A program made the translations under genes and the position numbers. The notes under the pieces are model-generated. The model searched no databases, had not been told where the DNA came from, and saw only the letters and a list, made by a program, of their open reading frames with translations. DNA of 62,904 bases, filler included, from Chrysochromulina tobinii (taxonomy: Eukaryota), in assembly GCA_001275005.1 (NCBI GenBank). It is 10 parts of 10 records of this genome, joined end to end, with 100 filler letters (N's around TTAATTAATTAA, not from the genome) between each part and the next. Parts side by side here need not be neighbours in the genome. Positions count along the whole stretch, not along the records: positions 16,743 to 22,940 come from JWZX01000393.1; 9 more parts are not named here. One strand, 5' to 3'. Shown here in pieces: positions 3,798-57,991 of the stretch; positions within the stretch are counted from its first letter, which is position 1, and each line of letters starts with the position of its first letter.

Positions 3798-5667
3798 TCA
3801 TCGAACGAAGCAACGCGAATGGTCACCTCCAGCTATCGGCATGCTCGCATGCATGCTTGCAGCTTTGGCCTGTCGCGCCGCATCGCACGCCACGCCCAAT
3901 AGATAGTCGGGTGCCGTAAGCCGCACATCGAGGCTGCTGCTGCTGCTGCTGCTGCTGCCGCTGCTGCCGCTGCTACCGCTACCGGTGCCAGGCGAGCGGC
4001 ATACGAATGCGTCCCGGACATCGCGTAGGGCTTGTAGCTTGCCAAGCGCCTCGGCCTCGCTGATGGCCTCGAGCTGGTCGAGAACAGGGGCGAGGCGCTG
4101 GCGGACGGTTGTCTCGGAGACGAGGTAAGCGATCAAGCACCTGCTCAGAGGGATGGGATCTAATGAGATCTAATGGGATCTAATGAGATCTAATGAGCTC
4201 AGAGGGATGGGATCCTCATCAAAGCCCTGCATCAAAGGCCATCAGACTGGCGCTCAGAGGGTGGATCGCGCACCAATCCAGCCAGGATGTGTACGGCAGG
4301 AAGCGTGAGAGCCGCTGCCCCAGTCCATGCGACTCATCCATGGAAGCATTCAGGCGGGCCCGGTCGGGTGAGGGTCGCTTGGAATGCAGGGGCGGCACGA
4401 CAATGATGGGGATGCAGCCACCCGCGCCGCCGATGGCCACCGCCTCCGCAATCTTCTTGGTCGACCAAGTGTCCCCGGGTGCGACCAAGCAGAAGCGATG
4501 GGCCATCGCTCGGCCTAGGTACGCGTCGTCTTGCTGCCCGTGTGCAGCCATGTGGCTGCGTCCATCGGTGTGGCCTTGGGCTGCGATGAAGCGGCGCGAG
4601 CTTGTGGCATCTGCTTCCATATCAGGTAGCTCGGACGTAAAGTTCACCAGCTCCAAGTAGGGTTTGCAGCGCTGCCGGAAGCTGCGTAGTGCCGCGCTGT
4701 CGGAGCGCGTACGGAGGAGGCTCGCGTCACAAGAGCTCTCCCTGCCGCAGCCGAGGGCGTGGCAATGCGTCCCAAGGAAGCTGACCAGCCCACTCACATG
4801 GCCATTGTACACGCTCCCCTGAACTGAGCGGATGCGCTCGAGCTTCGCCTCACCCTCGAGGGCGAGCGCGCGTCGGCGCAGCTCGAGGTCGCTCAGCAGG
4901 CACGTCCGATACGAGCCGATGGTGCACAGGATCGTCCATGAGGTGGCGGTGACGCGCGGGTCGCGCCTCAACTGCTTCCAGATGAGGTATCGCGTCGGCT
5001 TTATAAAGAGTTTCGGCACGTGCCCCGCGAAGAAGAGCAGCTTACGCCGCGACCACGGCACGATGGGCGGCGGTTGCTCTGTAGCGCCGCCAGCGCCGCC
5101 AGCGCCCGCGCGCTCCGCGTCCCCGGCCGCGTCCCCGGCCGTTGCTCCGTTGCCATCGCCGACCAGCCACGCAGGCGATGCGACCACGAAGGGCGTCACC
5201 TGCACGGAGGGCGGGTCGGCGCTGCGCATCGCCTCGGCGAGAGTGACAATGTTGCGCGGCTTGAAGGAGCCCCGGGTGTCCGCCCACGGCACACCACACA
5301 TGTTTGCCTGGAGAACGACCAAGATTGCGCCGTCATCCCAGCTCGCATTGGCGGCGCCGTGCGGCCAGAGCGTTCGGTCGCTCAGCATCTTGTACCAATT
5401 CGTGCGGCGCATGAACGTCTTGCCCGCGACGCAAAAAAGCGAGAAGTTGGCCACTGCGACTACCAAATCTGCCTCGCTGCGAGTGTACGTTCTCCACGGC
5501 GAACGCTTGGCTGCCTCAGCGAGGTGCAGCTCCATGGCGTATTGGTGAGAAGGCCATGCCGCCGGCTGCCGGTGAGCCGCCAGCGGCTGATGCAGCTCGT
5601 GCACGTAGACCTTGCAGTGCTGCGCGGCGAGTACGTGGGTCGTGCTAGCCGCCCTCGACGTACGCAT
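3798..5667 (-). CDS. Exostosin-like GT47 glycosyltransferase, 2 exons (intron 4141..4273); start uncertain (ORF open to 5790)
   Basis: 'RRKLLFFAG', 'HRFCLVAPGDTWSTKKIAEAV...GCIPIIV' (GT47 FCL.P.GD...EA...GCIPV signature). Splicing 4273..4141 restores 'LPYTSWLDW|CLIAYLVSE'. Confidence 0.8.
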
Positions 5668-5825
5668 TTTCGTCAAGAGAAAAGCCTGGTATGTGCAGGA
5701 TGCATGCCAAAAAATCGCTGGCTTTTTAGTATTTCGATCACCCCTATTAAGGCCAAAAGTTTTCACACGCGGTCGCCAGTTTTCACACATCGAGATTTCG
5801 CGCGAGAGCCACTTTTCACACGTCC

Positions 5826-7094
5826 ATGCCTGTCAAAGGCAACGAGTACTACAAGACGCGCGTCGATGCACGACGATGGCAGTTATCGCTCGACCCGTTC
5901 GACCCGTCCACTCTCGCGCGTTGCACGCACGTCGCCAAGAGTTGGCTTGCGCTTTCGGACAATCCATCGGGCTCACCAATCCTCATGACGTATGCAACGA
6001 GCGTGGAGCCCCGATGGCTCCTCGGCCTTTCGGCGGCGAGTCACCGCGTGCCGCTAGTACTTGTTGGCCCGTCAATGCCCGCGTGGAAGTGGTATGAGGG
6101 CGGCGCGACGAGAAAGGTGCCCGGGGTGCTGCGAGCTCTCCAGGTTCTCCACGAGGTGCTGCCGCATGCTCCCGTTGCGCTCGTTGACAGCAGCGACCTG
6201 CTCATAGCGAATGAATTCATGCCGGAGCATGCGGAGCTCGTCCGCAACCTTGGCCCACAGTCCGTGATGGCTGGTGGAGAATGCAACAGCTGGCCAGTTT
6301 GCTACCGCAGCCTCTACGCTTCTCACCCCGAGTTCCAGCGATGCGTGGCGGCGCGGCACGCTCCGTGCTACCCTAATTTCGGCGTGCAGATCGCGCCCTC
6401 TCCGGGCACGCTGCGCGAGTACCTTCGCAGCCTGCTCTCCATGCTCGAGGCCACGCGCCGCCTGCCCACACCCGCTGAGCGCGGCTATGATCAGGCCGCG
6501 CTCCATCGGCTCTACCTCGGCCAAGGGGGAGTGGGCCAAGGGGGAGTGGCCAGCCCTCTGAACGACGAGGTGACCAAATATCGCACGAACCGCTCCGCAA
6601 GCGCTCCACTCGGCCCGCGGCTTCGAGTGGATGGCGAGTCGTCGCTCGTGCTTCAGCTGTGGAGTTGCAGTGCCGACGGTCCGAGCACACGTTCTCGTGG
6701 CGGCAAGGGAGGCTGGGAGTATTGCAGTGACGTGCGGCACGAGCCTCTTACGCGGATCTCGACGGTGACCGGCTCGGCACGCAGCGTGACGCTCCGGTAC
6801 AATGGAAGTGAAGGCGTGGTCACACGGCCATGGCTGCTCCACGCCAACGGCCGGCATTCCCACATGGGCGCTCCCGCTCTGCAACGGCTCCTCCGACACT
6901 ATGTGGGAGTGGCCCCGGGGCCGAGCTCGCTGCCGCCTGCGCAAGGCGAGCACGCTCGTGCAGCAGCGCTGCCGCTCATGCCGGACGATGTGCGATGGGG
7001 CCATCCGGTGCTCGTGCTCGAGTCGTATAGCGAGGGAGCGTGCTTCACGACCACGCTCGGCTGGCTTCTCAACAGGAGCAGCGCGGCATATTGA
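5826..7094 (+). CDS. Glycosyltransferase resembling the PLOD/procollagen galactosyltransferase GT domain
   Basis: 'VALVDSSDLLI', 'VMAGGECNSWP', 'YPNFGVQI', 'DQAALHRLY', 'LLHANG' match the D..D / .E..cWP / ylNsG / DQ / HgNG motif order of this family. Confidence 0.65.
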   Translation: MPVKGNEYYKTRVDARRWQLSLDPFDPSTLARCTHVAKSWLALSDNPSGSPILMTYATSVEPRWLLGLSAASHRVPLVLVGPSMPAWKWYEGGATRKVPGVLRALQVLHEVLPHAPVALVDSSDLLIANEFMPEHAELVRNLGPQSVMAGGECNSWPVCYRSLYASHPEFQRCVAARHAPCYPNFGVQIAPSPGTLREYLRSLLSMLEATRRLPTPAERGYDQAALHRLYLGQGGVGQGGVASPLNDEVTKYRTNRSASAPLGPRLRVDGESSLVLQLWSCSADGPSTRSRGGKGGWEYCSDVRHEPLTRISTVTGSARSVTLRYNGSEGVVTRPWLLHANGRHSHMGAPALQRLLRHYVGVAPGPSSLPPAQGEHARAAALPLMPDDVRWGHPVLVLESYSEGACFTTTLGWLLNRSSAAY

Positions 7095-11145: not shown

Positions 11146-13032
11146 CTAGTGTCGGTCCGGGGAGCCCAGGCGCGGTCGAGACGAAAGGCCACCTGCGACA
11201 GCCGCCCGAAGGTAGGCTGAGCGCTCGTGAGCCACTGCGTTTGTAAGGAGGCGCCACAGGTAATGACAGCCCACCTCGGGACCCACTGAACCCTCGCGGT
11301 CGCCGCCGCCCACACGGCTGCGTCCTGGCGATGAGTTCCTGGCAGCCGTGAGCGCCCCCTGCCTTGCCGTCATAAGTCGCTCCCACGCCGTCGTGGGCAT
11401 CCGCGTGGCACTCGTGCCCAGCGGGCCAGTCGAGGATGCATGCTCGGCGAGATGAGGGGGGCAAAGCTCGAGGATGGACGCAACATCGGCATCGCTCAGC
11501 TGGAGCGTCGGGCAAGCCTCGCGTAGCCTGGCAAGCAACTCGGAGAGGGCCACCGTGCGCTTTCCTTGCGTCTCCCATATTTGGAACACGCCCTGCAGCG
11601 CCCGCCTATGCCAGAGCATCGCCAGGATGAGGGGCGCTGGGAGCTCTGTGCCTCCGACTGAGACGCCAACCGCGGGGGTGGGCAGCATGACCACCGAGGC
11701 GACGAGCGGCTCGGGCACCATCACACCGGCACCCTTCAACGCATCGACCACCTGGTACCAGTTGGCGGCACTGCTGTTGCCTCCTGCGCCGTTCAAAGCG
11801 GCCGGGTACCGATATTGGATGGCCGCGGCGACGGCGGGTGCCGCGAGCTCAGCGCCCCCTCGAAGGGTGCGATCAAGGCTGCGACGACTGGCACTCGCCT
11901 CGCCGCCTCGCGGAGTCGCAGCATCGGCAGCACGCCTTGACTCCCAGTCCAAGCGTGCTTGGACTCGCGCTTGGACTCCGAGCGCCGCGCTCGGACTCGT
12001 GCCGACCATTCGAAACCTATCGCGCCTCATCCCATACGCATACTTCGATCCGTGCGAGCCTCGTGCTGAGCGCAACGAGAGGGCTCCGAGGGCCGAGTCG
12101 CCGACGTCGGCGTGGGCGAGCTCCCCGAGGTCCTCATACGCCGTCTCGAGGCTCATCGGGAGGCCCACGCCATCGAGGCAGCGCGCACCGCTCAGGATTG
12201 TGCGCACGAACACCGGCATATCGTCCAGCGTGAACGAGATCAGCTCCGCGTCGGCGGTGAGCCCGCGGGGCGCGGGCGGTGCCTCCGGCTCGGTCGGCAG
12301 GAGCGCTCGCATAAACTCATCGAGGGAGACCGTCTTGCTCTTATCGGCGTCGAGGCGCTCGAAGATCGCCTCGAACTGTTCGCGAGTCCTGCTCTCAAAG
12401 CGGCACGCTCCTTGCCGCACGACGCCGCCGAGCCCGAGGATGTTGCGCACGCTCTGGTTTGTGCGCACCGCCTTGATGACCTCGGTGCGGCTGAGCACAC
12501 CGTCTCCATTCTTGTCGATGAGCCTGAAGGCCTCTTCGATCATGCCAGGGGTGACCTCCGAATGGAAACGCTGCAGAGCCTCAGCCTCACGCGATGTGCG
12601 CCGAGCAGTACGCTCCTCATGTTCTCGGCGCGTGGACTCGAGTAGAGAGGTGAGTCCACGCTTCCACTCCGCGAGTCCGGACCCATGTCCGGCGCCAGGA
12701 AGGTACACGGGGTCACGGCGCGGCTGCTCCACGGTTGGCGTCCGCGGCGGCTTGTTTGGCGACTGCGGCGGCTCGACTCTTAGTGCTGCCGGTAAGTGTA
12801 GTCGCGGTGTGGCTTGTTCGTCGATCTCGTCGAGGAAACGGGCGAGTCGTGTGGCTTGTTCGTCGATCCTGTCGAGGTACACGGGCACCGACTCGCTCTC
12901 GAGCTGGTGCGACGAGGCCACCGCGGCTTTGTGTATGGGCTCTGGAGCGACTTTGCGCATCGGCTCTGGAGCGCGGTAAGGAATCAAGCCCGGCAACAGG
13001 CTTTTGGTTGGAGGCGGCGAGGCCATGTGCAT
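11146..13032 (-). CDS. EF-hand calcium-binding domain protein
   Basis: Two canonical EF loops 'DKNGDGVLSRTE' and 'DADKSKTVSLDE' within a 628-aa ORF. Confidence 0.75.
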   Translation of the reverse strand: MHMASPPPTKSLLPGLIPYRAPEPMRKVAPEPIHKAAVASSHQLESESVPVYLDRIDEQATRLARFLDEIDEQATPRLHLPAALRVEPPQSPNKPPRTPTVEQPRRDPVYLPGAGHGSGLAEWKRGLTSLLESTRREHEERTARRTSREAEALQRFHSEVTPGMIEEAFRLIDKNGDGVLSRTEVIKAVRTNQSVRNILGLGGVVRQGACRFESRTREQFEAIFERLDADKSKTVSLDEFMRALLPTEPEAPPAPRGLTADAELISFTLDDMPVFVRTILSGARCLDGVGLPMSLETAYEDLGELAHADVGDSALGALSLRSARGSHGSKYAYGMRRDRFRMVGTSPSAALGVQARVQARLDWESRRAADAATPRGGEASASRRSLDRTLRGGAELAAPAVAAAIQYRYPAALNGAGGNSSAANWYQVVDALKGAGVMVPEPLVASVVMLPTPAVGVSVGGTELPAPLILAMLWHRRALQGVFQIWETQGKRTVALSELLARLREACPTLQLSDADVASILELCPPHLAEHASSTGPLGTSATRMPTTAWERLMTARQGALTAARNSSPGRSRVGGGDREGSVGPEVGCHYLWRLLTNAVAHERSAYLRAAVAGGLSSRPRLGSPDRH

Positions 13033-13391
13033 GGGACACTCTCGGATTTCGACGTTTCATCGAGAACTTTGCCAATGCATGTATTGATCCAATCGCAGAC
13101 GACAACTCACACGCCTCTCTCCACATTCTGCCCACCCGCCGGCGCCGCCAACGACCGTCCACACGTGCGTGCGTGTGTGTGCTCTGTGCGAGCACCACCA
13201 GACCCTTGTTGTTGTTCGGTGTTCGGACCGCACCTACGCGCTACGGAGGCGGGTCACGACCTCACGTCCGGCCGCAGCGGCTCTCTCGCATCCTCCCTGA
13301 CCGGACGGGGGGGTCGTTTTGTTGGATGTAGTTATCCGAACCGGAATACGCTGCATGCCTTTCTAAGGTACCCGATGCCTCTCTCGCCGTC

Positions 13392-13895: not shown

Positions 13896-14584
13896 CCGCG
13901 CTGCTTGAGGTGTTTTGTGGACCCTCACCACGTGGTTCGTCTTCACATCAATCAGTCAGTCAGTCAGTTTCGTGGTTACAAATAGCTTGGAAAGGGGTGG
14001 GGGAGTACGTGCACGCGCTCACGCGTGCGTTGCCTTGGGCCGGTGTGTGGCCTTCGGTCGGCCGAAGATGAGCGTCTGGGGACACGCTGGTGCACGGAGC
14101 GCGCCTGCCAAAGTTGCATGCATTTCATTCACCACATCCCTTTTTTGGTACCTATTGGATGTTTCTGTTTCGAGTTTTCTGTTTCAGACGCGAGCGGGAC
14201 GTTCGAGCCGGAAGGAGCGGCTCCCTAACTTCGGCGTGCGGTGACTCTCCCTGGAATCGCCGCGGCTCTGCGGTCGGCGCATCGGGCCATGTTCATGAGG
14301 CTTCTGGCAAGCTGTGACAGGTGCTCCAGGCACTGAACGACCATTGAGTTGATGGACGCTCCAATTGTTGAGTGGCAAAGGCCGGACGAAACATCCAGCC
14401 GAGCTCGCCCGTGGCTGCGCAACCACAGCCAGCATCTGAGCCACGCACGTCTAGCTGCGGTAGCCGGCTTCCAGTAGCAAACCGTGAGTATAACTGTGGT
14501 ACTGTGAGGGACCTACCGTCCTAGTAACGTTCTCCCGCAGTACCGTTAGTGCAGTTAGAGTAGATAGCTCTTCTTACTTACACC

Positions 14585-14785
14585 CACCTAACCCCCTAAC
14601 CCCCTAACCCCGAACCCCTAACCCCTCTAACCTCCCTCTGGTCTAACCCTTTACATGTGGTTTCGACAGTTAAACCTAACCACACCCACCCGAACCGTAA
14701 AGTCGGTTTCGTAGCCGTAAGAGTAACCGTCATACCGCTCCACCTGTGGTTTCGGCGCAACCCCTAACCCCTCACCCCTAACCTT
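14585..14785. repeat. Degenerate telomere-like CCC(C)TAA repeats, interstitial
   Basis: Clusters 'cctaaccccctaaccccctaaccccgaacccctaacccctctaacc' and 'aacccctaacccctcacccctaacc'. Confidence 0.7.
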
Positions 14786-14934: not shown

Positions 14935-15232
14935 AAAAACGCAAAACGCAAAACGCAATACGCAAGACGCAAGACGCAATACGCAAGACGCAATGCGGGT
15001 CAAAGTGGGCTGGCCAGTACGCAATACGCAAGACGCAATACGCAATGGGGGTCAAAGTGGGCTGGCCAGTACGCAATACGCCACACGCAATACGCAATAC
15101 GCAAAGAGGGTCAAAGTGGGCTGGATGTGAAAATTGCAGTCATACGCAATACGCAATACGCAGTACGTAATGCGGGTCAAAAATACGCAATACGCAAAAT
15201 GCTGAAAATACGCAACAAAAAATTACGCTGCG
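14935..15232. repeat. Tandem ACGCAAT/ACGCAAG heptamers with three GGGTCAAAGTGGGCTGG blocks
   Basis: Directly visible heptamer array with a higher-order ~56-60 nt period. Confidence 0.9.
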
Positions 15233-19432: not shown

Positions 19433-19906
19433 ATGTTCGCGGCTGCGACCGCGGCTGCGCGCGGGCTCGGTTCGTGCCTAGCGCGATCCGCCGCCGCCCC
19501 TCTGCTCCGGCCGCCACTACTGACGCAGCCGCGCCGCGACATGTCCATCCACCTCAAGACGCGGCTGAACGTCATTGACAACACCGGTGCCAAAGAGGTC
19601 GAGTGCATCGACTTCTATGCGCGCAAGCCGGCGCGGCTCGGCGACGCGATCCGCGTCGTCGTCAAATCGGCGAAGCACGACGGCCGCGTGTCCAAGAAGG
19701 ACATTGTCGGCGCCGTCGTCGTGCGGCAGAAAGCGAAAATGCAGCGGCCTGACGGGAGCGTCATCTTCTTCCAAGAGAATGCGTGCGTGCTCATGAAGCG
19801 TGACCTATCGGGGCCGATAGGCACGCGCGTGACGGGTCCGGTGGCGCGCGAGCTGCGTCAGGGTCGCTTTATGAAGGTCGTACTTATGGCGTCGCGCGTG
19901 GTATAG
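19433..19906 (+). CDS. MRPL14: Mitochondrial ribosomal protein uL14m with N-terminal transit peptide
   Basis: 'LKTRLNVIDNTGAKEVECI...AVVVRQK...RPDGSVIFFQENACVL...PIGTRVTGPVARELR' is the L14 signature. Confidence 0.92.
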   Translation: MFAAATAAARGLGSCLARSAAAPLLRPPLLTQPRRDMSIHLKTRLNVIDNTGAKEVECIDFYARKPARLGDAIRVVVKSAKHDGRVSKKDIVGAVVVRQKAKMQRPDGSVIFFQENACVLMKRDLSGPIGTRVTGPVARELRQGRFMKVVLMASRVV

Positions 19907-20253
19907 CGCGAGCCAGGTGCATGTCCCGCGCGAGAAGCCAGAAGGTGACCACGCGCAGAGATATTCTTGTAACTTACCAAGCTACCTACGCGCAGAGCCG
20001 GTCGTGTGCTGTCCGCTCCGTATGTGGGTGAACGCACGCGAGTACAGTGTGTATCGACTCCCAGTGTAAACTTGATCCTGATAGACTGAGGGCATCCCAT
20101 AAAACGCCCCGCGAGGCAGCGTTTTGCACTCTATGAAATGGGAGGCGCTCGTCAGCGGCGCAGGACTCGGACCAGTCGTGCCTCGTGGCCTTCGTCGTGG
20201 GCCGGCCAGAGGAGGCGGACGCATGCAGCCTTGCAGCCAACGGCCAGTGCCGC

Positions 20254-22808
20254 TCACGGCCCAAAGCTCCACTCCCATGGGCCGCTCACCAGCTTCCGAT
20301 GCCGGTTCGTATGCGGGATCACGTCCCAGAAGAAGTCGTACCTGTGGGGAGACGCGGGCGCTGTGGTGAGCACTTGCATGCGGGATCACGTCCCAGAAGA
20401 AGTCGTACCAGACGTGCCCAGCCGCCTTTGGATTGGGCGGCTTGGAGCAGCACCTGTGGGGAGAGGCGGGCGCTGTGGTGAGCGCTTGCATGCAGGGCAG
20501 GACGTCCGCGGCAGTCTCAGCGCTCATCAAGGGGGAGATCGCACCAGATCGAGACCCAATCTCGCATGCGCTGCTGCTCGAGCTCGCCCTCGTCGGCGGG
20601 CAGCGTCGCGTACCTGCGGAAGGTTAATCAAGTTTAATCAAGTTTAATCAAGAGTAATCAAGGTTAATCAAGGGTAATCAAGGGCAGCGTCGCGTACAGG
20701 TCGGGCATGCGCTCAAAGTGGAGCACACGCACTGATCGCATCTCGGCCGTCGAGAGTATTGCGAGCGCGTCGGCGCTCAGGCCCGCGGGCGGCTGCAGCA
20801 CGCGGCGCGAGGCGATGAGCTCCTTGGGGAATCAAGGGGAATCAAGGTTAATCAAGGGAGATCGCACCTGGAGCACGCGGCGCGAGGCGATGAGCTCTTT
20901 GGGGAATCAAGGGGAATCAAGGTTAATCAAGGGAGATCGCACCTGCAGGACGCGGCGTGAGGCGATGAGCTCTTTGGGCGCCCGCGGGTTGTCGAGGAAG
21001 GAATACTCGCGCAGCATCCCCTCGATCGTCCCATCCTGATGAGGGAGGCAATCAGAGGCCATCAGAGGTCATCAGAGGTCATCAGAGGTCAACAGAGGTC
21101 AACAGAGGTCATCAGAGGTCATCAGAGGCCATCAGAAGGAACATCAGAGGCCATCAGAAGGAACATCAGAGGCCATCAGAGGGTCATCAGAAGGACCATG
21201 CTCACCAGCGTGCGCGCCATATGCTCGAGGTCGAGCACATGGTCGGCGGGGCACGGATCGATTGGTAGCATGGTGTCCGATCCAGGGATGGTGCCGTTGT
21301 GTGGAGCCCAGAAGCGGTCGAGGCCACACACGAGCTTGGGCAGGATGAGGATGCGTTGCAGTCGACGAGCGAGCAGCAGCGCCGCGCGCACCTGTGGGGA
21401 GAGGGGGGGCGCCGTGGTGAGCACGTGCATGCAGCCGCCGAGAGAGCACTTGCATGCAGCCGCAGCGGCGGCTTTCTCAACGGCTTTCTCAACGGCTTTC
21501 TCGACAGCACCCACCTGCGTCAGCTGCGGATGCACGAGAGCGAAGTGCGACGAGACGTCCATCACACCCGCAGGCCGCACCTGTGGGGAGAGGAGGGCGT
21601 CGTGATGAGCACGTGCATGCGAGGAGACGTCCATCACACCCGCAGGCCGCACCAGGTGCCGCTGCACCGCCAGATCGAAGCTCAGAAAGCCTTGGAGCTC
21701 GCCGGCGCCAGATTGGATCTCGCTGCCAGATTGAAGCTCGCCGGCGCCAGATTGAATCTCGCCGCCAGATTGAAGCTCGCCGGCGCTCCGGGGAGCTCCG
21801 GCGCGACTGCTCAGGGCGGCGCTCAGCTGTGGGAAATCATGCGAGAACTGTGCCCGCGTGCGGCTGCTCAGGCGCGGCGCATAGTACGACGGCTCGTCAT
21901 ACCTGTGGGGAGAGGGCGCCGTGGTGAGCAAAAGAGGCATGCAGCGCGCGCCACGGACGACGGCTCATGATGTCATGCTCATCATGCACGTGCTCACCAC
22001 GGCGCCCCCTCCCCACATGATGGCAGGCTCATCATGCATGTGCTCACCACGGCGCCCCCTCCCCACATGATGGCAGGCTCATCATGCATGTGCTCACCAC
22101 ATCATCGCCTCGCGCAGCCGGTGCGTCTTGCCAATGGCGCCCGAGTACTGGAAGGTCGTGTGCACTGTGAACGGTTCGATCGGCGGAGGGACAATCAGCA
22201 TCCAATCAGCATCCAATCAGCATGCAATCAGCATGCAATCAGCATGCAATCAGCATGCAATCAGCATGCAATCTAGGCCGATGAAGGGCACCTGTGAACG
22301 GTTCGATCGGCGGGGTCATGCGCTGCGGCATGCGCTGCACGAAGTACGTGTGGCCCGAGCAGTAGGTGGCGACGGGTAGGATCCCGATCGTGATGGTGCC
22401 ATTGTACCCGAGAAAGAGGCGCTTCGAGCGCGCCGGCTCGGGCACCTGCATGCAACAAAAGGGTCACTCAGCATGCAAACGCTTGTACCCGAGGAAGAGG
22501 CGGCTGGGCGCGCGCCGGCTCGGGCACCTGCTCACGAAACTTGAGGCCGCCGATCTTGAGCACGTCCTTGAAGAGGTTCTGATCCCAAAGGTTGGGGTGG
22601 GCCGCGCACCTGATGAGCGAGGCAATCAGAGGTCATTAGAGGCCAGGGGCATATTGACGAGGTTCTGATCCCAAAGGTTGGGGTGGGCCGCGCACTCGGC
22701 TTGCCAATGGAGCATGGCTGGCAAGACGTCATGCCTGAGGTACATGTACCCGATGTTCCACGCGGAGGAGCTCGAGCGCCAAGGGTCCTCAAGCTCGGTC
22801 TCGGGAGA
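20254..22808 (-). CDS. XEG113: XEG113-like arabinosyltransferase (GT77), 5' truncated; at least 11 introns: 20342-20408, 20454-20544, 20614-20697, 20793-20942, 21036-21205, 21392-21514, 21581-21652, 21903-22097, 22165-22291, 22446-22527, 22610-22695, plus one ending at 22809
   Basis: Manual GT-AG splicing yields a continuous frame with motifs AWNIGYMYLR..WDQNLF..GILPVATYCSGHTYFVQ..FTVHTTFQYSGAIGKTHRLREAMMWYDEPSYY..FLSF..HFALVHPQLTQVRAAL..CGLDRFWAPHNG..CPADHVLD..REYSFLDNP..IWCC..GHVWYDFFWD, colinear with plant/green-algal XEG113 as I recall it. Confidence 0.88.
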
Positions 22809-22940
22809 CTGATGAGGGGCGTAATCGGACGCAATCAGAAGGTAATCATCAGAGCTCGGTCTCGGGAGACTGATGAGGGGCGTAATCGGACGCAATCAGA
22901 AGGTAATCATCAGAGCTCGGTCTCGGGAGACTGATGAGGG
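22792..22940. repeat. 61-nt tandem repeat (~2.5 copies) of intron acceptor plus first 17 nt of the exon
   Basis: AGCTCGGTCTCGGGAGACTGATGAGGGGCGTAATCGGACGCAATCAGAAGGTAATCATCAG repeated up to the contig end. Confidence 0.9.
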
Positions 22941-24802: not shown

Positions 24803-25646
24803 GGCCTGACTGAGGTTGCTGGGGCAGAATGGGCTAGTTTGAGGGGCGGCGCCAGCAAACACAGGCGAGGGCGCCTCTGCCGGCTTCACGCGCGGGATTG
24901 GGATTGGTGGCGGGGTTAGGATGGAGCAGGTTGGCGACCGACAACGCATGCCCTTGCCGGAAGCGAACACTGCCAGGTATGTGACCATGGGGCCAAGACA
25001 GACGATGGGAGAACAGGGTTACCCTACGGGGGTGGCTGGAGTGGCCGAGGAGCGTGGCAGGTGTTCAGCGGAGCGTTCGTGCTGCAGGCCGCAGGCGCGA
25101 CGGTGCCTCAGTCATTTTACGGTAGGTCACAAGAGGGTGATGTTGCAGGCGCGATGGCGCCTCTCTCCCATGTGGGCGCTCGGAAAGGATGGGGATCACG
25201 GAGGTCGGACCGGACCCGGGGACCGGACGCAGATGGGTATTGGATGCATGTGGAGAGCGCGTAGGGTGGAGGACGGACGCACACGACGTTTCCCATTTTG
25301 CGAACGAGTGGTGGCGGTGTGTGTAGTTCGTAGTGGTGGCGCGTGGCGGTGTCCAGACAGGTTGGCCGATGGCCATTTATGATTAGCTGAAACCTCAATC
25401 TTCCTCTAAGCACTCCTGTCGTGGACACTCCTGAGGAACCAAATGAAAAATAATCCAGTTTGCAACCAAAATAATCCAGAAAAAGTTATTTTCGTAGGGG
25501 CATCAATCTAGTCATCCGGACGTCCAGGAAAAGTTATTTTCGAGGGGCATCGAATGGGCGATTCTCGCGCCTTGAGGGCGTTTCTCGCGCGTTGAGGTGT
25601 GGAACGGACAAGTTACGCTTTCGCGCATCGAAATCGCGAGAAGACC

Positions 25647-26387
25647 ATGCTCAGGATCGTCGTCGCTGCGTCGCTCATTGCATCTGGCGATGCGCTCAAC
25701 GTGCCTGTCGCGGGCATGTCTCGTCGTGCGGCCTTTGCCAAGGCCGCCGCGCTGATCCCGCTCGTGCCTCTCGCCGCGTTCGCCGAGCTCAAGCAGGCGT
25801 CAGATGCGGATGTCTACGCACGCGCAGACGCGGGCAAGCTCAACGCAGCCCGCGTCATCGAGCGTGCCAAGGCAGGCAAGCTCGTCAATGGCGCAAGCGC
25901 CACCTGCGACGAGCTCGCCGACATCCTCGCGATCGACCGCCGTGCTTTCCAGTTCGAGAAGGACAAGCTGGCCTCGATGCCCAATGACTCCCCACAGAGG
26001 CAGACCGTCGCGAACGCCCAGAAGGCGATCGGGGTCCAGATCAAGAAGATTAAGGACCTCGAGAAGACCAAGTCGTGCCCGGGGCTGAAGCAGGCGTCAG
26101 ACGAGGAGGTCTACGAGCGTGCGGACGCGAACAAGCTCGGCTACGCCCGCGTCATCGAGCGTGCCAAGGCGGGCAAGCTCGTCGATGGCTCGAGCGCCAC
26201 CTGCTCCGAGCTGGAGAAGATTATCCGCGTCGACAAGGAGGCCGTCCTGTTCGAGAAGGACAAGCTCGAGGCCATGCCTAACGACCCCGCGCAGAAGAAG
26301 ATCGTCGCGGACGCCGAGAAGGCCATCGAGGCCCAGATCGTCAAGCTCAACAACAAGCGCAAGGAGAAAAAGTGCACAGTTAAGTAA
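25647..26387 (+). CDS. Predicted plastid/thylakoid-lumen protein with two internal ~100-aa repeats (paralog 1)
   Basis: Signal peptide, then 'MSRRAAFAKAAALIPLVPLAAFA' (twin-Arg, hydrophobic, AxA); repeat 'LKQASD..VY.RAD..KL..ARVIERAKAGKLV.G.SATC.EL'. Strong C/G third-position bias. Confidence 0.75.
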   Translation: MLRIVVAASLIASGDALNVPVAGMSRRAAFAKAAALIPLVPLAAFAELKQASDADVYARADAGKLNAARVIERAKAGKLVNGASATCDELADILAIDRRAFQFEKDKLASMPNDSPQRQTVANAQKAIGVQIKKIKDLEKTKSCPGLKQASDEEVYERADANKLGYARVIERAKAGKLVDGSSATCSELEKIIRVDKEAVLFEKDKLEAMPNDPAQKKIVADAEKAIEAQIVKLNNKRKEKKCTVK

Positions 26388-26689
26388 GTAACATTAACAT
26401 TAAGTAGTAAGTGAAAATCGCCTCGAAAAAAGCGTACACGTGGCGAGGGGGTTACCCCCAGGCATACTAAGAGTGCACGGTGTGAGGAGACTGAGGAGAA
26501 GAAGTGCAACTGTGAACTGACTCTGAGGCTGCCCCTGACATGGATTCCAGGATTGTGACCGCAAGTGATCCACAAGAACGATCACATCAGACGGAGAGTC
26601 GAGAAAGTCAGAGAGGCAGTGGAATATCGCTCGTCTTGACACATCTCATAATAACAACCCTTGCATCATTTTATTATTTTGATGTTGAA

Positions 26690-26900
26690 CAGCGACACTG
26701 ACTGCGGCCCCCCCCAAAATTGGCGGCCCCGCGGCCGCGCGCGCGCTTTCCCGCCTCCGGCTCCGCCTATCGCATTCTGCGCCGAGACGTGCAACTGGGG
26801 TCTGGGCTTCCGACGCCGATTGCGCGACGACGGCGGCATGGACGGCGGCCCCGGCTCGGAGTTCCGCCCGGCCCCGCCCCTCGGGCCGACGGCATGGAAT
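26690..26900 (+). pseudogene. Degenerate fragment of a Cys-rich repeat (C.ETCNW...DDGGPGSEF / TDCGP type)
   Basis: Pieces 'TDCGP', 'PPPAPP', 'FCAETCNW', 'DGGPGSEF' with disrupted frame between them. Confidence 0.35.
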
Positions 26901-27113
26901 GAGACCGTTGGACCTTCAGTACAAGATAAACGGGGGAGGGGACGCGATGCCGGTGGCAGCTCTGAGACACATTCGTCGGGGCAACGTCGGATTGATCCTC
27001 GCGCTTTGAGGGGCGACGTCGGGGTTTCGTTTGGGCGTTTCTCGCGCCTAGAGGGCGTTTCTCGCGCCTTGAGGTGTGGAAAGTTTCGCGCATCACTCTC
27101 GCAAGTGATCAAC

Positions 27114-27851
27114 ATGCTCTACAAGCTCATCGTCGCTGCCGCGCTCATTGCATCTGGCGATGCGCTCAACGTGCCTGTCGCGGGCATGTCTCGTCGTGCG
27201 GCCTTTGCCAAGGCCGCCGCGCTGATCCCGCTCGTGCCTCTCGCCGCGTTCGCCGAGCTCAAGCAGGCGTCAGATGCTGAGGTCTACGGACGCGCAGACG
27301 CGGGCAAGCTCAGCGCCGCCCGCGTCATCGAGCGTGCCAAGGCGGGCAAGCTCGTCGATGGCTCGAGCTCCAACTGCCAAGAACTCGCCGACATCATCGC
27401 GGTCGACCGCCGTGCTGTCCAGTTTGAGAAGGACAAGCTGTCCTCGATGCCCGATGACCCCGCGCAGAAGAAGGTCGTCTCGGACGCCGAGAAGGCGATC
27501 GAGGCCCAGATCAAGAAGCTGGAGGGCCTCGAGAAGTCCAAGTCATGCGCGGGGCTGAAGCAGGCGTCAGACGCGGAGGTCTACGAGCGTGCGGACGACA
27601 ACAAGCTCGGCTACGCCCGCGTCATCGAGCGTGCCAAGGCGGGCAAGCTCGTCGATGGCTCGGGCGCCACCTGCTCCGAGCTGGAGAAGATTATCCGCGT
27701 CGACAAGGAGGCCGTCCTGTTCGAGAAGGACAAGCTCGAGGCCATGCCCAACGACCCCGAGCAGAAGAAGATCGTCGCGGACGCCGAGAAGGCCATCGAG
27801 GCCCAGATTGTCAAGCTCAACAACAAGCGCAAGGAGAAGAAGTGCAACTGA
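27114..27851 (+). CDS. Predicted plastid/thylakoid-lumen protein with two internal repeats (paralog 2)
   Basis: Near-identical to 25647..26387, including a duplicated upstream motif TTCTCGCGCCTTGAGG. Confidence 0.75.
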   Translation: MLYKLIVAAALIASGDALNVPVAGMSRRAAFAKAAALIPLVPLAAFAELKQASDAEVYGRADAGKLSAARVIERAKAGKLVDGSSSNCQELADIIAVDRRAVQFEKDKLSSMPDDPAQKKVVSDAEKAIEAQIKKLEGLEKSKSCAGLKQASDAEVYERADDNKLGYARVIERAKAGKLVDGSGATCSELEKIIRVDKEAVLFEKDKLEAMPNDPEQKKIVADAEKAIEAQIVKLNNKRKEKKCN

Positions 27852-28077: not shown

Positions 28078-28220
28078 AAAATTCTTATTTAGTATATAAT
28101 TATTTGGCACCAGGTCGCCATGCTACACCTTTACGGTCCTTCACAGTTTAGAAATCTTATTTAGTATATAATTATTTGGTGCCAGGTCGCCTACACCTTT
28201 ACGGTCCTTCACAGTTTAGT
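28078..28220. repeat. AT-rich ~70-nt tandem duplication
   Basis: 'tcttatttagtatataattatttgg...caggtcgcc...tacacctttacggtccttcacagtttag' occurs twice. Confidence 0.8.
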
Positions 28221-35658: not shown

Positions 35659-35755
35659 GTGGGCTCCTTGCACAGAAGCAAAGTCTGTGCCGCCGTCGCG
35701 TGACTGTATGGGCTCCTTGCACAGAAGCAAAGTCTGTGCCGCCGTCGCGTGACTG
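35659..35755. repeat. ~50-nt tandem duplication
   Basis: 'tgggctccttgcacagaagcaaagtctgtgccgccgtcgcgtgactg' occurs twice. Confidence 0.85.
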
Positions 35756-39713: not shown

Positions 39714-41960
39714 TCACATGAACTTGGGGTTGCCATAGCAGACCTTTGTGAGCATAGCCCCAACGCAGAAAAGGACACACATCGCATATGCGGTCCATGA
39801 AAGCGAGACTAGCAGGGCGTGCACGTTCTTGTCGTGCGGCAAATAGGCATAGCCCAATGCCATACCAAAAGGCACCATGTTGATGATGACCCACGCGACG
39901 GAGATATTAGCCAGCACGGTGTTGTCCCAGCCCCACTGCAGCGTGTCGAGCGTCTTGGAAACGCCTCCGGCAACGGCCACGATGAATCCGGCGACGAACA
40001 CGATCCAATGGAAGATCATGTCATGCCGTGTCGAATCTCGAGGGTCCTCGGACGGGCCAGTTGCCTCCGTTAGCTGTTCTTGCAACGCCTGCACCGCGTC
40101 TTCGTCATAGACGCCATTTTCATCCACCAAACCGTACATGACGGCGACTTCAGCATCAGTGAGTCCCGAACCCTTTTTCTGATCGAGAAGCTGCTCCTGT
40201 TTCGCCGGCTCTTTCTTCGCCGCCTTGGGGTCCCCTTTCTTCTCGGTCACCTTGAACACGATCTTCTTGCCGAAGCCCAGACGACCACGGACTGCTTTCC
40301 ACATCGCCTTGAGGAAGCACCACCACATGATGTAATTCACCTTGGACCCAAGGAAACCAGTGAAGCGCGAGAACCGACGTGGCATCATCTCAACGACTGC
40401 GATCAGGGTGATGAAGTAAGATATCCACAGGATGACGAGCACGGTGGTCAACTCTTTCACCGGGTGCGTTTTGGTGTACACAGAGACGACAGGCACAATC
40501 AGAAAGACGGGGAAGCAGATGATCGTCGAAAGGTAGCCCATGATCGAGTTGAAGTAGCACAACATCTGGATGGCGGGCAGCTGGCGGACCCACATGAAAG
40601 TCTCCACCTGGAAAAAGACCTGGAAGCAGCCCGTGCACCAGCGCGAACGCTGCTTAAAAATCTGCCGCAAGTCATCGGGCGCCTCGCCCGTCGTCAGCAC
40701 ATGCCCATGGTACCGGCAATGCCAGCCCGACGCGGTCAATTTGAGCGAGAGCAAGAAGTCCTCGGTGATCGACTCGGTCGGGAACCAGCCCACGGCAGCA
40801 AGAGGAGCGGCACGTACGGCGAAGTTGGTGCCGCAGCAGACAGTCGCGCGCCACGCGTCGAGGCCTGTCTGCACGCCGAAGAAGAAAGTACTGCGCGTTC
40901 GAGGCTGGGTGAGTAGCATTAGGGATGGCAAGGCAAACATTTGGGTGATCACGGCAAGCGCACGAGTTCTGATGGTTGAAGACGTCGCCAGCATGGTCGA
41001 CATTGAAAAAGTGCTGAGGCGTTTGAGCGATGGCAGTCTGCGGGTCGTCCTCGAAATAGGGCAGCACGTGCTGCAAAAAGTTGGGATGTGCCTTCATATC
41101 GGCGTCAAAGATTACTATGATGTCATTGTCGCGAGGCCGCTTTTTAGCGAAGATGTTGAATTTGAGTGCCGAATTAACGTTGCCCGCCTTGCCATGAATG
41201 GGCACACCCGGCCACTTGTTCCGCGCGAGGTAGATCAAACGCTCGTTACCCATCTCCATGCACTTCTTCTCGCGCTCGAGGTTCCGGCCGTCATCAAGCA
41301 TGTACACGTACACCTTGGCCCATTCGTGCTTGAGCTGCAGCGCCGCCTCACAAGTGGCGAACACAAGGTCCGATGGCTCGTTGTAGCATGGCACGCAGCA
41401 GTGCACTACGTATCGTGGCTTTATCCTGGGCACCACCTTAGGCGGCGCCTGGTTGTATGCCCACGGCTGCGGGAAGCGGATGACCGCAAGCATCATCACG
41501 CAAATCGCGCCGAACATCTCAGCGACGCAAATTGTGGTTTGGTAGTACATGCGGTACGGCACGTCCCACTCAATCGTGTACAACCATCGATACCAAAAGT
41601 AGGACGGTAGCAGCACAAAGTAGCAGACAACAAGCAGGCGGTAGATGACCTTGCCCAAGTCCTCAGTCTGCTCCTGCCCAAGATCCGTGGGCACCTGCTG
41701 TGAGGGCATGGCATCATCGTCGTCGTCATTCACCTCATCGTTAACCCCATCATCCTCGTCATCGTCCTCGTCCTCTTCCTGCAGCATTAAACAAGGCAAC
41801 ATGTCAGCATCAAAGCGCCAAACAGAGAGCAAAAGAGCCTGATGAAGGTGCCGTCTCAGCGCACATCGAATTCATCATCATCCTCGCTTGACTGCTCCCT
41901 AGTTGTGGACACGCGCTGCATGCCCTGGTGGGATCGATCTGTCCTGCTTGCGACTCGCAT
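39714..41960 (-). CDS. Cellulose-synthase-like processive GT2 (introns 40891..40963 and ~41780..41863)
   Basis: 'VPCYNEP', 'LDDG', 'KAGNVN', 'FDAD', 'QTPQHF', 'CCGTN', 'SITED', 'QRSRW' give the D,D,D,QxxRW set, followed by TM helices. Splicing GTGCGC...CGCAG (40963..40891) joins 'NHQNS|TFFFGVQ'. Confidence 0.9.
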
Positions 41961-53649: not shown

Positions 53650-53890
53650 TCCGCCGGCGCTATGCGCCGGCAACGTTTGAATACGAAGTGTCGCCGGCGC
53701 TACACGCTCCTCGTTTGAATACAAATTTTCGCCGGCGCTACGCGCCGGCCTAAATTTTCGCCGGCGCTGTGCGCCGGCAACGTTTGAATACGAAGTGTCG
53801 CCGGCGCTACACGCTCCTCGTTTGGATACAAATTTTCGCCGGCGCTACGCGCCGGCCTAAATTTTCGCCGGCGCTGTGCGCCGGCCTTTA
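53650..53890. repeat. ~107-nt tandem repeat (~2.2 copies) rich in the CGCCGGCG palindrome
   Basis: Directly visible; lies in an AT-rich intergenic region. Confidence 0.85.
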
Positions 53891-55320: not shown

Positions 55321-57991
55321 ATGCTTTTGCGACTGCGGACACCATCAGCGCTATGGCGCGCCGCGCCGCACGCAACGCCAACCCGATGCGCCATACGAAC
55401 GCTGTCGACACGTGGTCAGCGGCACGGCGCCGACCGTCAACATCAAAAGAAGAAGAAGCCACAGCTCACGTTCAAGGATGTGGTTCTGCGCGTGCCAGAG
55501 CTGTGCACGGCGGAGCGCTTCGCGCAGGAGCTCCGCATGTCGACTCCCAAGCTGCAGGAGCTCGCCGAGGAGCTCGGCGAGCACATCGATGCGCCAAGCC
55601 GGCCGCTGACGGCGGAGGTGATGGAGCTGCTCGCGATGGAGGTGGGTGCGACGCTGCAGATCACGCCCGTCGACGTGAGCCGCCGGCCGTCGCCCAGCGA
55701 AAAGGAGCGCGCCTCGCTGCCAGTGCGCCCGCCGGTGGTCACGCTCATGGGCCACGTCGATCACGGTAAGACGTCTCTTCTCGACGCCTTCCGCAACAGC
55801 GACATCGCGAGCGGCGAGGCAGGCGGTATCACGCAGGGCATCTCGGCGTTCATCGTGGACGAGGGCACGGAGCAGGTGCGCGATGGCCTCAGATGGCCTC
55901 TGATCGCCTCTGATCGCCTCTGATCGCCTCTGATCGCCTCAGTCAGCCCTTGATTCCCTCTGACCGCCACGCGTGGATGGCGGTACCGAGCAGGCGATGA
56001 CGTTCATCGATACGCCCGGACACGAACTCTTCGCGGCAATGCGCCAGCGCGGCGCGCGCGCGACCGACATCATCATCCTGGTTGTCGCCGTGGACGCGGG
56101 CGTGCAGCCGACCACCGAGCAGGCCATCGAGTTCGCGCGCCAGATGGGCACACCACTCGTCGTCGCGATCAATAAGATGGACCGTCCCGATGCACAGAAG
56201 CTACTTCCAAAGATCACGCAGCAGCTTCTCGCGCGTGGCGTGGTGCCAGAAGACATGGGCGGCGAGGTGCCGCTCGTCGGTGTGTCGGCCACCAAACGGC
56301 TCCATTTGGATAGGCTGCGCGAGGCGGTGCTGCTGCAGGCCGAGCTGCTCGAGCTACGGGCCGAATCCCAGGGGCCCGCCGAGGGCGTGGTGCTCGAGGC
56401 CACGGTACAGAAAGGACTTGGCGTCGTCGCCAATGTGCTTGTGCAGCGTGGGGCTCTGAAGCCGTCAGATTTGGTGGTCGTCGGGACCACCTGGGGCAAG
56501 ATCAAGACGCTCACGCCCACAGACGTGCGTGCTACTTTTGCGTTGCCACTGAGTGCCGCTGAGTGCCACGGAGTGCTACTGAGGGCCACTGAGTGCCGCT
56601 GAGTGCCACGGAGTGCCACTGAGGGCCACTGAGTGCCGCTGAGTGCCACGGAGTGCCACTGAGGGCCACTGAGTGCCGCTGAGTGCCACGGATTGCCACT
56701 GAGGGCCACGGATTGCTTCCCTCATCAGGGCACACGCCGTCTGGACGAGGCGGGCCCTTCGACTCCGGTGCGCATCTCGGGTCTGCGCGAGCTGCCGCGC
56801 ACAGGCGACGAGCTCCTCGTGGTCGGCACGGAGGCGAAGGCGAAGCAGGTGAGCGAGTACCGACTCGCACGCCAAAGTCTCGAGAAGCAAGCGGAGCAAG
56901 ATGAGGCAGCACGGGTGCTTGCCGAGACGGCGGCGGCCAAGCTGGCAGCGGCCAAGGCGGCGGCTGCCATGGCTGCCCAGGCTGGAAACGCCGATGCCGC
57001 CGCGGCAGAGGCGGCCGCGGCCGAGGCAGCCGAGGCGGCCGCGGCTGAGGCGGCGGCAGCGGCGGCTCCGAAGCTTGTACCGGCCGTGCTGAAGGCGGAG
57101 AGTGCGGGTGCTCTCGAGGCCGTGCATGCATCGCTCAGCCAATTCCCACAGGACCGGGTAAAGCTCAAGGTGATCCGCGCCGACGTGGGCGCGGTCACCG
57201 AGGCCGATGTGCAGCTGGCCGAGGCGACGAGCTCCGCGATCATTGGTTTCAATGTGGGCATTCCCAGCAAGGTGAAACCAATGCATGCACGCTCACCTTG
57301 AAACCAATGCATGCCCAGCAGGGTGAGCGTGCATGACTGCGATGAATTGCCATTCATTGTCCACGACTGCCACTGAGGGCTCTGAGGGCCTCTGGCGACC
57401 ATCCATTTGACGACCATCCCTAATGGACTTCTACTGATGAGCCGTGATTGCATAAGCATGCCCTCTACTTGCCTCCCTCATCAGGTGAGCAGCTTGGCTG
57501 AGGAGCTCGGGGTGCCCGTGCTTCGTCACGCCATCATCTACGAGTTGAGTGACCGCGTCAAGGAGCTGCTTGAGAACGCCATCGAGCCGGTCCTCGAGGA
57601 GATCGTTCTCGGCGCCGCCCAGGTGCAGCAGCTCTTCACACTCACACTCAACCGCAAGGACCGGCGCTCAGGCATGCTCAAGCAGACCCAGGTCGCCGGG
57701 TTGCTCGTGAGTGAGGGAGAGGCGAGCGCGGTGGCCCGCGTGCGAGTCGAGCGCGGCGCGGGCAACGTGCTGCACGAGGGGCGCGTCGTCTCACTCAAGC
57801 ACTTCAAGAACGAGGTCAAGACGGTCCGACGCGGCCTGGAGTGCGGCATTGTGCTCGCCAACTACAGTGGGTGCGAGCCGGGTGACATCCTCACGTTCTA
57901 CGACATCGTGCCGAGGAAGCCGAGCCTCTATGAGGCCGCGGCGGGCAGCACCAGCAGTGGCAGTGGTGGAAAGCCCAAGGAGGATGGCTAG
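55321..57991 (+). CDS. MTIF2: Mitochondrial translation initiation factor IF2; introns 55876..55993, 56525..56728, 57272..57484
   Basis: '[27 protein letters not shown]', '[22 protein letters not shown]', 'AINKMD', '[16 protein letters not shown]'. GT-AG splicing gives a continuous frame; Arg-rich presequence. Confidence 0.93.

What the first reader, a model, noticed from the sequence alone, without database searches (positions are those of the whole stretch)
20254..22940. Candidate intron-generating system: introns built from long direct copies of the flanking exon plus repeat filler
Seen, read on the coding strand: intron 20342-20408 starts with a perfect 31-nt copy of the next exon (GTACGACTTCTTCTGGGACGTGATCCCGCAT); 20614-20697 with a 16-nt copy; 21581-21652 with ~34 nt; 22446-22527 with ~45 nt (diverged); 22610-22695 with 37 nt. 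In these the exon's own GT is the donor. The mirror type also occurs: 22165-22291 and 20793-20942 end with 22- and 36-nt copies of the preceding exon, whose AG is the acceptor. IF2 intron 55876-55993 on another contig is of the mirror type. Each insertion therefore looks like a variable-length target duplication giving one splice site plus inserted DNA giving the other, and it splices without a scar. Known: introner transposons co-opt short, fixed-length target duplications, and the tandem-duplication model of intron gain needs no filler. Inference: long variable duplications with modular filler fit neither well and suggest staggered-break repair or target-primed synthesis making introns in bulk. 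I cannot confirm this is undescribed.
Basis: partly seen in the sequence, partly recalled or inferred. Interest (0 to 1): 0.9.

Follow-up and report, generated by a model that had tools for sequence, protein, structure and literature searches.

The report
Introns built from neighbouring introns' ends
In an alga of the genus Chrysochromulina, seven of eleven introns in one gene consist of a 16-45-base copy of the adjacent exon joined to a recurring piece of intron end, assembled transcripts lack them, and two appear to be missing in close relatives, which likely reflects DNA repair that duplicates a stretch of exon while copying in the end of an existing intron, a route to mass intron gain that would need no transposon.

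Summary
Observation confirmed. Assembled RNA contigs fit removal of exactly eleven introns from a Chrysochromulina glycosyltransferase gene. Seven carry a 16-45 nt exon copy that supplies the GT or AG. The pattern is general: in related metagenome loci, 108 of 166 sites ending in one acceptor module follow a copy of the next exon (control 0.1%; median about 30 nt). It is recent: introns 22610-22695 and 21581-21652 are absent from some close relatives' gene calls, and distant haptophytes lack 21581-21652, 20793-20942, 20614-20697 and 20342-20408. New here: fillers are pieces of existing introns. One presence/absence insertion matches exactly an intron end 470 nt away in the empty allele, with 2-4 nt microhomologies; nearest modules are local 9-fold above chance, though usually not local. 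Best reading: microhomology-guided template switching duplicates exon and copies an intron end, and selection keeps spliceable products (inferred, 0.55). A retrotransposon-like route is the main rival. A published introner survey scores C. tobinii as zero families, and such pipelines require similarity at both intron ends. This scan noted the same footprint earlier on another piece of this genome (e1-2577349).

The parts
20254..22808 (-). Host gene, 3' part (12 exons to the stop at 20254): nucleotide-diphospho-sugar transferase (PF03407) family; the 5' part is cut by the contig end
   Evidence: Spliced frame open; exon hit PF03407 E 0.009, below cut-off; full-length homologue P0192 PF03407 E 1e-25; RNA contigs
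22809..22940 (-). Intron cut by contig end; 61-nt unit (17-nt copy of next exon + filler ending CTCATCAG) x2.4
   Evidence: read-through present in the 15 listed strain proteins
22610..22695 (-). Intron 1, donor from exon copy (37 exact, 42 with 1 mismatch) + filler ending CTCATCAG; absent in 2 of 15 listed close relatives
   Evidence: P0203, P0205
22446..22527 (-). Intron 2, about 45-nt diverged copy of next exon + short filler
   Evidence: spanned by DNA contigs
22165..22291 (-). Intron 3, mirror type: donor filler with 11-nt repeats, ends in 22-nt copy of preceding exon
21903..22097 (-). Intron 4: three inverted module copies supply the donor (GTGAGCAC), a decayed internal copy of the next exon, sense module at the 3' end; position probably shared with P0156
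   Evidence: the decayed-copy reading is inference
21581..21652 (-). Intron 5, 35-nt copy (1 mismatch) + M1 module ending CCCCACAG; absent in close relative P0153
   Evidence: spanned by DNA contigs
21392..21514 (-). Intron 6, no long copy; old position shared with distant haptophytes, yet ends in the M1 module
21036..21205 (-). Intron 7, all filler (10-nt repeats, ends CTCATCAG)
   Evidence: 170 nt skipped in RNA contigs of X12 and X17
20793..20942 (-). Intron 8, mirror type: two 75-nt units of donor filler + 33-36-nt copy of preceding exon
   Evidence: 150 nt skipped in RNA contig of X12
20614..20697 (-). Intron 9, perfect 16-nt copy + 10-nt-repeat filler whose best match among all held DNA is intron 8
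20454..20544 (-). Intron 10, donor end like intron 8, acceptor module like intron 11, no long copy
20342..20408 (-). Intron 11, perfect 31-nt copy + 36-nt M1 module
55876..55993 (+). IF2 intron, mirror type with diverged 22-nt copy of preceding exon
   Evidence: strain proteins start inside the copy or just after it; not RNA-tested

Best explanation
These are spliced introns of the form exon copy + piece of an intron end, likely made by host repair or replication synthesis that switches template at short microhomologies, duplicating about 12-55 nt of exon and copying in the end of an existing intron. Shown: the anatomy, the splicing, the excess over chance, empty versus filled sites, and one filler identical to a neighbouring intron end. 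Inferred: synthesis leaves the target, copies the last 30-60 nt of another intron through its AG, and re-enters at an upstream GT that resembles the template's own AG|GT junction; in the mirror case it copies an intron's GT end and re-enters upstream of an exon AG. Because 135 of 166 module-ended acceptors are followed by GT, each product is again a template whose junction matches donor-like sites, so the system would feed itself. In coding exons selection would keep only products that splice. Whether the template is DNA or nascent RNA is not decided. The direct repeats would also allow exact loss by recombination, so empty alleles may be ancestral or reverted.
For: Copies vary continuously (12-52 nt, median 30.5, n=90) and fillers start at variable points, unlike a fixed element. 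L084 has an 81-nt insertion (perfect 33-nt duplication + 48-nt filler) missing from L010 and L041; the 48-mer matches exactly only the intron end 470 nt downstream in L010/L041, with 2-nt and 4-nt microhomology at the two joints. In L074 one filler starts with part of the exon copy of an intron 1.7 kb away, joined at a 5-nt microhomology. The nearest module lies in the same locus for 24 of 113 sites (2.7 expected; maximum 10 in 200 permutations), and pairs within 3 edits are 9 of 219 within loci versus 26 of 13,464 between. Both mirror types occur. The same copy+filler units differ between L007 and L033 at existing donors and an acceptor, and across a stop codon with a module lacking its AG. 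Inverted module copies occur (5 of 37 non-acceptor copies, 3 events). Copy/exon mismatches are 37-40% synonymous, as expected for a constrained exon and a neutral copy that began identical. No terminal inverted repeat at the intron ends and no poly(A) tail is seen.
Against: Local templates are a minority: among the youngest introns with a local partner the nearest module was local in 5 of 14, and for older ones 5 of 21; module similarity does not fall with distance within loci (rho 0.05, p 0.43). Local likeness could partly be later gene conversion. Two or three module families dominate genome-wide, as a mobile family would. No polymerase, nuclease or repair gene was tested, and no whole genome was available to exclude an autonomous partner element. 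Introns in the fetched loci are predicted, not RNA-checked. Copy length may be shaped by minimum intron length (median intron 78 nt) rather than by the lesion.
Confidence: 0.55

Rival explanations
1. Target-primed reverse transcription: a non-LTR-type reverse transcriptase/endonuclease copies the 3' ends of excised introns or a short SINE-like element into staggered nicks, giving long variable target duplications and 5'-truncated inserts.
For: In the commoner type the insert has a fixed 3' end at AG and a variable 5' start; most fillers have no near-identical local parent; non-acceptor module copies are mostly sense (32 of 37, confounded by local tandem duplication). Non-LTR-derived introners are reported (5% of classified cases; PMC12130899 section 6).
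Against: The mirror type keeps the 5' GT end and varies at the 3' end; inverted and both-side-truncated modules occur; no tail; one filler is an exact copy of a neighbour and another captured a neighbour's exon copy. No reverse transcriptase among 14 window ORFs scanned, which is a tiny sample.
Confidence: 0.25
2. Turnover of old introns: tandem duplication across an existing splice site followed by loss of the original part rebuilds an intron at the same position, so there is little real gain.
For: Boundary duplications are common and differ between assemblies (intron 8 and the terminal intron); intron 6 is at an old position yet ends in the module; plain 50-110-nt tandem duplications occur outside genes too.
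Against: Empty alleles exist for introns 1 and 5 and for L084; distant genomic read-throughs cross positions 5, 7, 8, 9, 10 and 11 uninterrupted; the L084 filler matches a different intron. It explains a subset, not the class.
Confidence: 0.12
3. A classical introner (non-autonomous DNA transposon with a short fixed duplication) whose copies were later scrambled by repeat expansion and local duplication.
For: Four introns here are all filler with 2-6 nt junction repeats; a marine Chrysochromulina MAG has introners with 4-bp duplications (PMC9860276 Fig. 2C). Such an element may have seeded the modules.
Against: The youngest events (perfect 20-44 nt copies, empty alleles) already have long duplications and half-intron fillers; C. 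tobinii scored 0 introner families (PMC12130899 supplement file 7).
Confidence: 0.05
4. Assembly artefact.
For: The fillers are highly repetitive, and listed DNA contigs break within introns 1, 3, 8 and 11.
Against: Three duplications are spanned by DNA contigs of two runs; intron 1 read-through recurs in 13 of 15 listed proteins from other assemblies, with independent substitutions; many copies have diverged from their exons.
Confidence: 0.02

Closest known systems
Introners that co-opt a target-site duplication (Symbiodinium, Polarella glacialis classes 4-6, 8, 10; Chrysochromulina sp. MAG family with 4-bp duplication)
   Same: One splice site from the duplicated target, the other from the insert; scarless; many related introns per genome (bioRxiv 10.1101/2020.10.14.339549 parts 1-2 of 4 read; PMC9860276 passages).
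   Different: Those duplications are fixed per family and 3-9 bp; here 12-52 nt and variable. Those elements are similar end to end; here only one end is shared, chimeric and of variable length, without terminal inverted repeats, and partly copied from neighbours.
[quoted passage not shown]
   Same: Direct repeats from a staggered break around inserted filler (PMC3443670, passages).
   Different: There the repeats are short, the filler is foreign or unidentified and the review counts 5 unambiguous events; here repeats are long, fillers are intron ends carrying a working splice site, and over 100 cases were seen in about 0.6 Mb.
Tandem genomic duplication model (AGGT duplication)
   Same: An exon copy becomes intron and supplies a splice site (PMC3443670, passages).
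   Different: That model needs AG|GT inside the duplication and no filler; here usually only GT or only AG comes from the copy.
Templated insertions of polymerase-theta-type end joining and microhomology-mediated template switching
   Same: Insertions copied from nearby sequence with microhomology at both joints and multiple switches (recalled; one review title seen in the reference list of PMC8469720).
   Different: Not known to me as a source of introns in bulk; templates here lie 0.5-1.7 kb away or further; no polymerase was tested.
Sister (stw)introns of Hypoxylaceae
   Same: Sequence-similar introns at new positions, sometimes two in one gene (PMC8469720, passages).
   Different: Whole symmetrical introns inserted with no splice-site duplication at the site; here half-introns with long duplications.

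Membership tests
Introner (Gozashti et al. definition) | Intron-to-intron similarity reaching both intron boundaries | tested here: not met
   In copy-bearing introns one end is locus-specific exon copy; criterion from PMC9860276 methods
Introner (Gozashti et al. definition) | Many sequence-related introns in unrelated genes | tested here: met
   166 unique M1 acceptor sites and 98 M2 sites
Introner (Gozashti et al. definition) | Insertion is spliced out without changing the mRNA | tested here: met
   RNA contig arithmetic for the window gene; not tested for the fetched loci
TIR DNA-transposon introner | Short fixed target-site duplication (3-9 bp) | tested here: not met
   12-52 nt, continuous distribution
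TIR DNA-transposon introner | Terminal inverted repeats at the insert ends | tested here: not met
   None at the ends of copy-bearing introns; inverted modules occur only inside intron 4
Non-LTR retrotransposon / SINE insertion | Variable target duplication with fixed 3' end and 5' truncation | tested here: inconclusive
   Met for the acceptor type, reversed in the mirror type
Non-LTR retrotransposon / SINE insertion | 3' poly(A) or simple-repeat tail | tested here: not met
   Inserts end in a pyrimidine tract and CAG/TAG
Non-LTR retrotransposon / SINE insertion | Autonomous partner sharing the 3' end | not testable with these tools
   No whole genome held; motifs absent from viral contigs
Repair-associated intron gain (DSBR) | Direct repeats flanking an insertion, above background | tested here: met
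   108 of 166 vs 0.1%; 42 of 98 vs 1.6%
Repair-associated intron gain (DSBR) | Empty site in relatives | tested here: met
   L084 vs L010/L041 in DNA; introns 1 and 5 from protein read-throughs
Repair-associated intron gain (DSBR) | Dependence on a repair pathway | not testable with these tools
   Needs mutants or induced breaks
Tandem genomic duplication | No filler; both splice sites from a duplicated AGGT | tested here: not met
   Filler of 27 nt or more in all 108; AG precedes the copy in 33 of 90
Templated insertion by template switching | Insert identical to a pre-existing sequence with microhomology at the joints | tested here: met
   Two cases, L084 and L074; not shown for most sites

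The most novel reading that the evidence does not exclude
Splice-site ends behave as self-propagating templates: with no transposon or element-encoded enzyme, host repair synthesis copies intron ends from place to place, duplicates the target so that the second splice site comes free, and has built thousands of introns in this lineage. This would be a second, non-transposon route to bursts of intron gain, still active and polymorphic in a culturable alga.
Probability: 0.4. Interest if true: 0.92.

Novelty: new variant of a known kind. Interest (0 to 1): 0.8.

Why it matters
The origin of new spliceosomal introns is a long-standing open question. [quoted passage not shown] This system appears to make introns in bulk with a different footprint, is excluded by design from pipelines that need similarity at both intron ends, and leaves a dated record: each intron carries a copy of its target and often a traceable parent. 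Segregating empty and filled alleles in a culturable genus make gain, loss and mechanism directly testable.

Tried and rejected
1) My early idea that the copies come from other coding alleles (all four differences in intron 8 are synonymous): rejected as a general rule. Synonymous share was 35 of 87 (one of three training sets out of frame) and 32 of 86, 26 of 72, 21 of 62 on the corrected rerun, matching 37-41% expected without it; mismatch spacing showed no mod-3 clustering (35 of 93). Intron 8 itself remains odd. 2) The first scoring (local alignment) gave only 42 of 166 above a control 99th percentile inflated by shared repeats; replaced by the anchored test. 3) The donor-side anchored test gave 48 of 115 vs 0.09%, but donor calls often fell on the GT of acceptor-type copies and only 12 end in AG; not used as a count of mirror introns. 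The exact-repeat scan found 19 mirror candidates among 456 repeats, 16 with filler words, two of these module-to-module matches (output partly cut). 4) Motif scans of viral contigs: 0 hits. Rfam on 20200-22940: 0 hits. 5) No whole genome held. 6) Depth over fillers is far above single copy, but summed contig depth is no copy number; not used. 7) Runs X18 and X20 share under 5% of words; no evidence drawn. 8) A link between the roughly 30-nt copy length and excision-repair patch size (recalled) was considered; minimum intron length explains the lower edge equally well. 9) Literature: ten full-text searches returned no description of this footprint; the library lacks most subscription papers.

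Full report
Source and gene. The window is a string of contigs joined by N spacers; no whole genome is held. Its rpl14 protein falls in a 90%-identity cluster with a named Chrysochromulina parva protein, so the organism is a Chrysochromulina or very close to it. The finding lies in a minus-strand gene whose full-length homologue P0192 matches PF03407, nucleotide-diphospho-sugar transferase.

Observation. RNA contig 18 of run X12 and contig 21 of X17 lie on the exons. All 13 piece-end record numbers compared fit an 11-intron model. Two introns are fixed singly; nine are fixed as sums plus GT-AG ends, an open frame and homologue continuity. These are assembled contigs, not raw reads. DNA contigs of X1 and X11 span three of the duplications without differences. 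Seven introns carry long copies (five donor-from-copy, two mirror); four are all filler with 2-6 nt junction repeats.

Generality. One scan of metagenome contigs with an 18-nt motif from the M1 acceptor module covered 4 of 64 parts of the collection and gave 127 loci. Loci were chosen by the module, not by any duplication. Of 302 module hits in 110 sequences (window included), 215 looked like acceptors, 207 had enough flank and 166 were unique. In 108 of 166 a copy of the next exon lies upstream (anchored score 12 or more), against 0.1% of mismatched controls; 95 start GT, 5 GC and 43 are perfect. Dropping 11 tandem units and 7 starting with neither GT nor GC leaves 90, with gapped copy length 12-52 nt, median 30.5, and intron median 78 nt. 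Copy starts are donor-like (GT[GA][CA]G 50% versus 11% of exonic GTs). A second module, ending CTCATCAG, gave 42 of 98 versus 1.6% in 94 loci after 14 redundant ones were dropped; that count includes tandem units. Mirror types are present but less well counted. None of these loci was RNA-checked. A genome total in the thousands is a rough extrapolation only.

Recency. In DNA, L084 has an 81-nt insertion absent from L010 and L041. For the window gene the evidence is protein gene-calls that read through introns. Of 15 listed members of the cluster covering intron 1 (17 members, 16 read), 13 run into intron 1, while P0203 and P0205 skip it but keep the introns on both sides. P0153 keeps introns 4, 6 and 7 but lacks intron 5. 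Assembly collapse or partly spliced RNA cannot be excluded, and empty sites could be reversions. Among the 21 proteins aligned (of 29 hits plus the query), P0155, P0166, P0167, P0169, P0170, P0171 and P0172 break at the position of intron 6, so they look genomic. All seven cross positions 7-9 unbroken, six cross 10, five cross 11, and P0155 and P0171 cross 5. P0156 appears to share position 4. So introns 5 and 7-11 look lineage-specific, while an old intron has acquired the module end. The IF2 introns appear shared by all close relatives inspected.

Where the filler comes from. The 48-nt filler of L084 matches exactly one site among all held DNA: the intron end 470 nt downstream on the same strand in the empty allele, with GC and GGTG microhomologies at the joints. 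In L074 one filler begins with the tail of the exon copy of an intron 1.7 kb upstream, joined at a 5-nt microhomology, within a more complex multi-unit insertion. Across sites, nearest modules are local 24 times in 113 against 2.7 expected. In the window, intron 9's filler matches intron 8 best; the other ten match distant loci as well or better. Against this: only 5 of 14 of the youngest introns with a local partner have a local nearest module, and similarity does not decay with distance. L007 versus L033 shows the same units added at existing donors (162 and 90 nt), at an acceptor (171 nt), and across a stop codon with a module lacking its AG. The process is therefore not tied to making introns. 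Inverted modules are rare but real; in intron 4 one supplies the donor. Mismatches between copy and exon fit a constrained exon and a neutral copy identical at birth.

Mechanism. Shown: duplication plus insertion of an intron end, splicing, empty sites and two traceable templates. Inferred: microhomology-guided template switching in repair or replication synthesis, re-entering at a GT (or after an AG) that resembles the template's own junction, with selection keeping what splices (0.55). DNA versus nascent-RNA template is open. Rivals: target-primed reverse transcription of intron ends or a short element (0.25); turnover of old introns by boundary duplication, real for a subset (0.12); a decayed classical introner, possibly the seed of the modules (0.05); artefact (0.02).

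Comparison. It works like an introner that co-opts its target duplication but fails the membership tests on both-end similarity, fixed short duplication and terminal repeats. What I saw of each paper: PMC9860276, passages and the first rows of a supplement search of one file cut when stored (C. tobinii in the genome list, a marine MAG listed with 827 elements); PMC12130899, passages, section 6 and a search of 12 of 14 supplements (C. tobinii 0 families; neither motif found); bioRxiv 10.1101/2020.10.14.339549, parts 1-2 of 4 (duplications of 3-8 nt; supplements closed and may bear on this); PMC3443670, PMC11282704, PMC12403724 and PMC8469720, passages; PMC4580454, passages (a single mention of introns, 59-Mb genome). 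Ten searches found no description of this footprint; the library omits most subscription journals, and the introner consensus sequences of the marine MAG were not available for comparison. Statements on polymerase-theta templated insertions are recalled.

Earlier scan notes. e1-2577349, on another piece of this genome, reported a 15-base duplication around a 66-base intron with over a hundred related introns and read it as a short mobile sequence. I agree on the footprint; my template evidence favours copying of intron ends over a discrete element. Searches by words and by sequence returned nothing.

Verdict. Real, spliced, widespread, apparently polymorphic, and not captured by the published introner surveys I could see. 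New variant of repair- or duplication-associated intron gain at introner scale; interest 0.8.

Noticed in passing
window 56525-56729 and about 57271-57484 (+): Two further IF2 introns made wholly of the same fillers and ending CTCATCAG; repeat number and content of the first differ between strain proteins.
   Followed up: partly
window 20793-20942 (-): All four differences among the exon and its two intronic copies are synonymous and the two fillers are identical; unexplained, possibly exchange with other alleles.
   Followed up: partly
window 21692-21786 (-): In-exon 39-nt coding repeat absent from distant homologues and 19 residues shorter in P0153: an in-frame duplication that was tolerated rather than spliced.
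   Followed up: partly
window 28082-28220, 35660-35755, 53652-53885, 14959-15162: Plain tandem duplications of about 50-110 nt outside obvious coding sequence; the genome seems prone to duplications of this size.
   Followed up: no
window 19857-20310: RNA contig 18 of the glycosyltransferase gene extends to 19857 and overlaps the 3' end of the convergent rpl14 gene (19541-19906).
   Followed up: no
window 39714-41871 (-): Family-2 glycosyltransferase / cellulose-synthase-like hits in two overlapping frames, suggesting an intron or frameshift.
   Followed up: no
window 42839-44149 (-), 11146-13056 (-), 4219-5832 (-), 50544-51770 (-): Dual-specificity phosphatase (DSPn + DSPc), EF-hand, exostosin GT47 and TPR proteins by Pfam; long ORFs without the modules, so the modules are clustered in few genes.
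   Followed up: no
window 25596-27851 (+): Two similar ORFs each with 297-nt internal repeats; no Pfam match for the one scanned.
   Followed up: no
window 14582-14637: Degenerate telomere-like CCCTAA repeats inside a contig.
   Followed up: no
L059 12940-13182 / L074 1-242: A 243-nt sequence 97.5% identical in two otherwise unrelated loci; possibly the end of a transposable element, not linked to the modules.
   Followed up: no
window 52265-52343 (-): A run of the 10-nt filler repeat next to a low-complexity GGC stretch, without a recognised intron.
   Followed up: no
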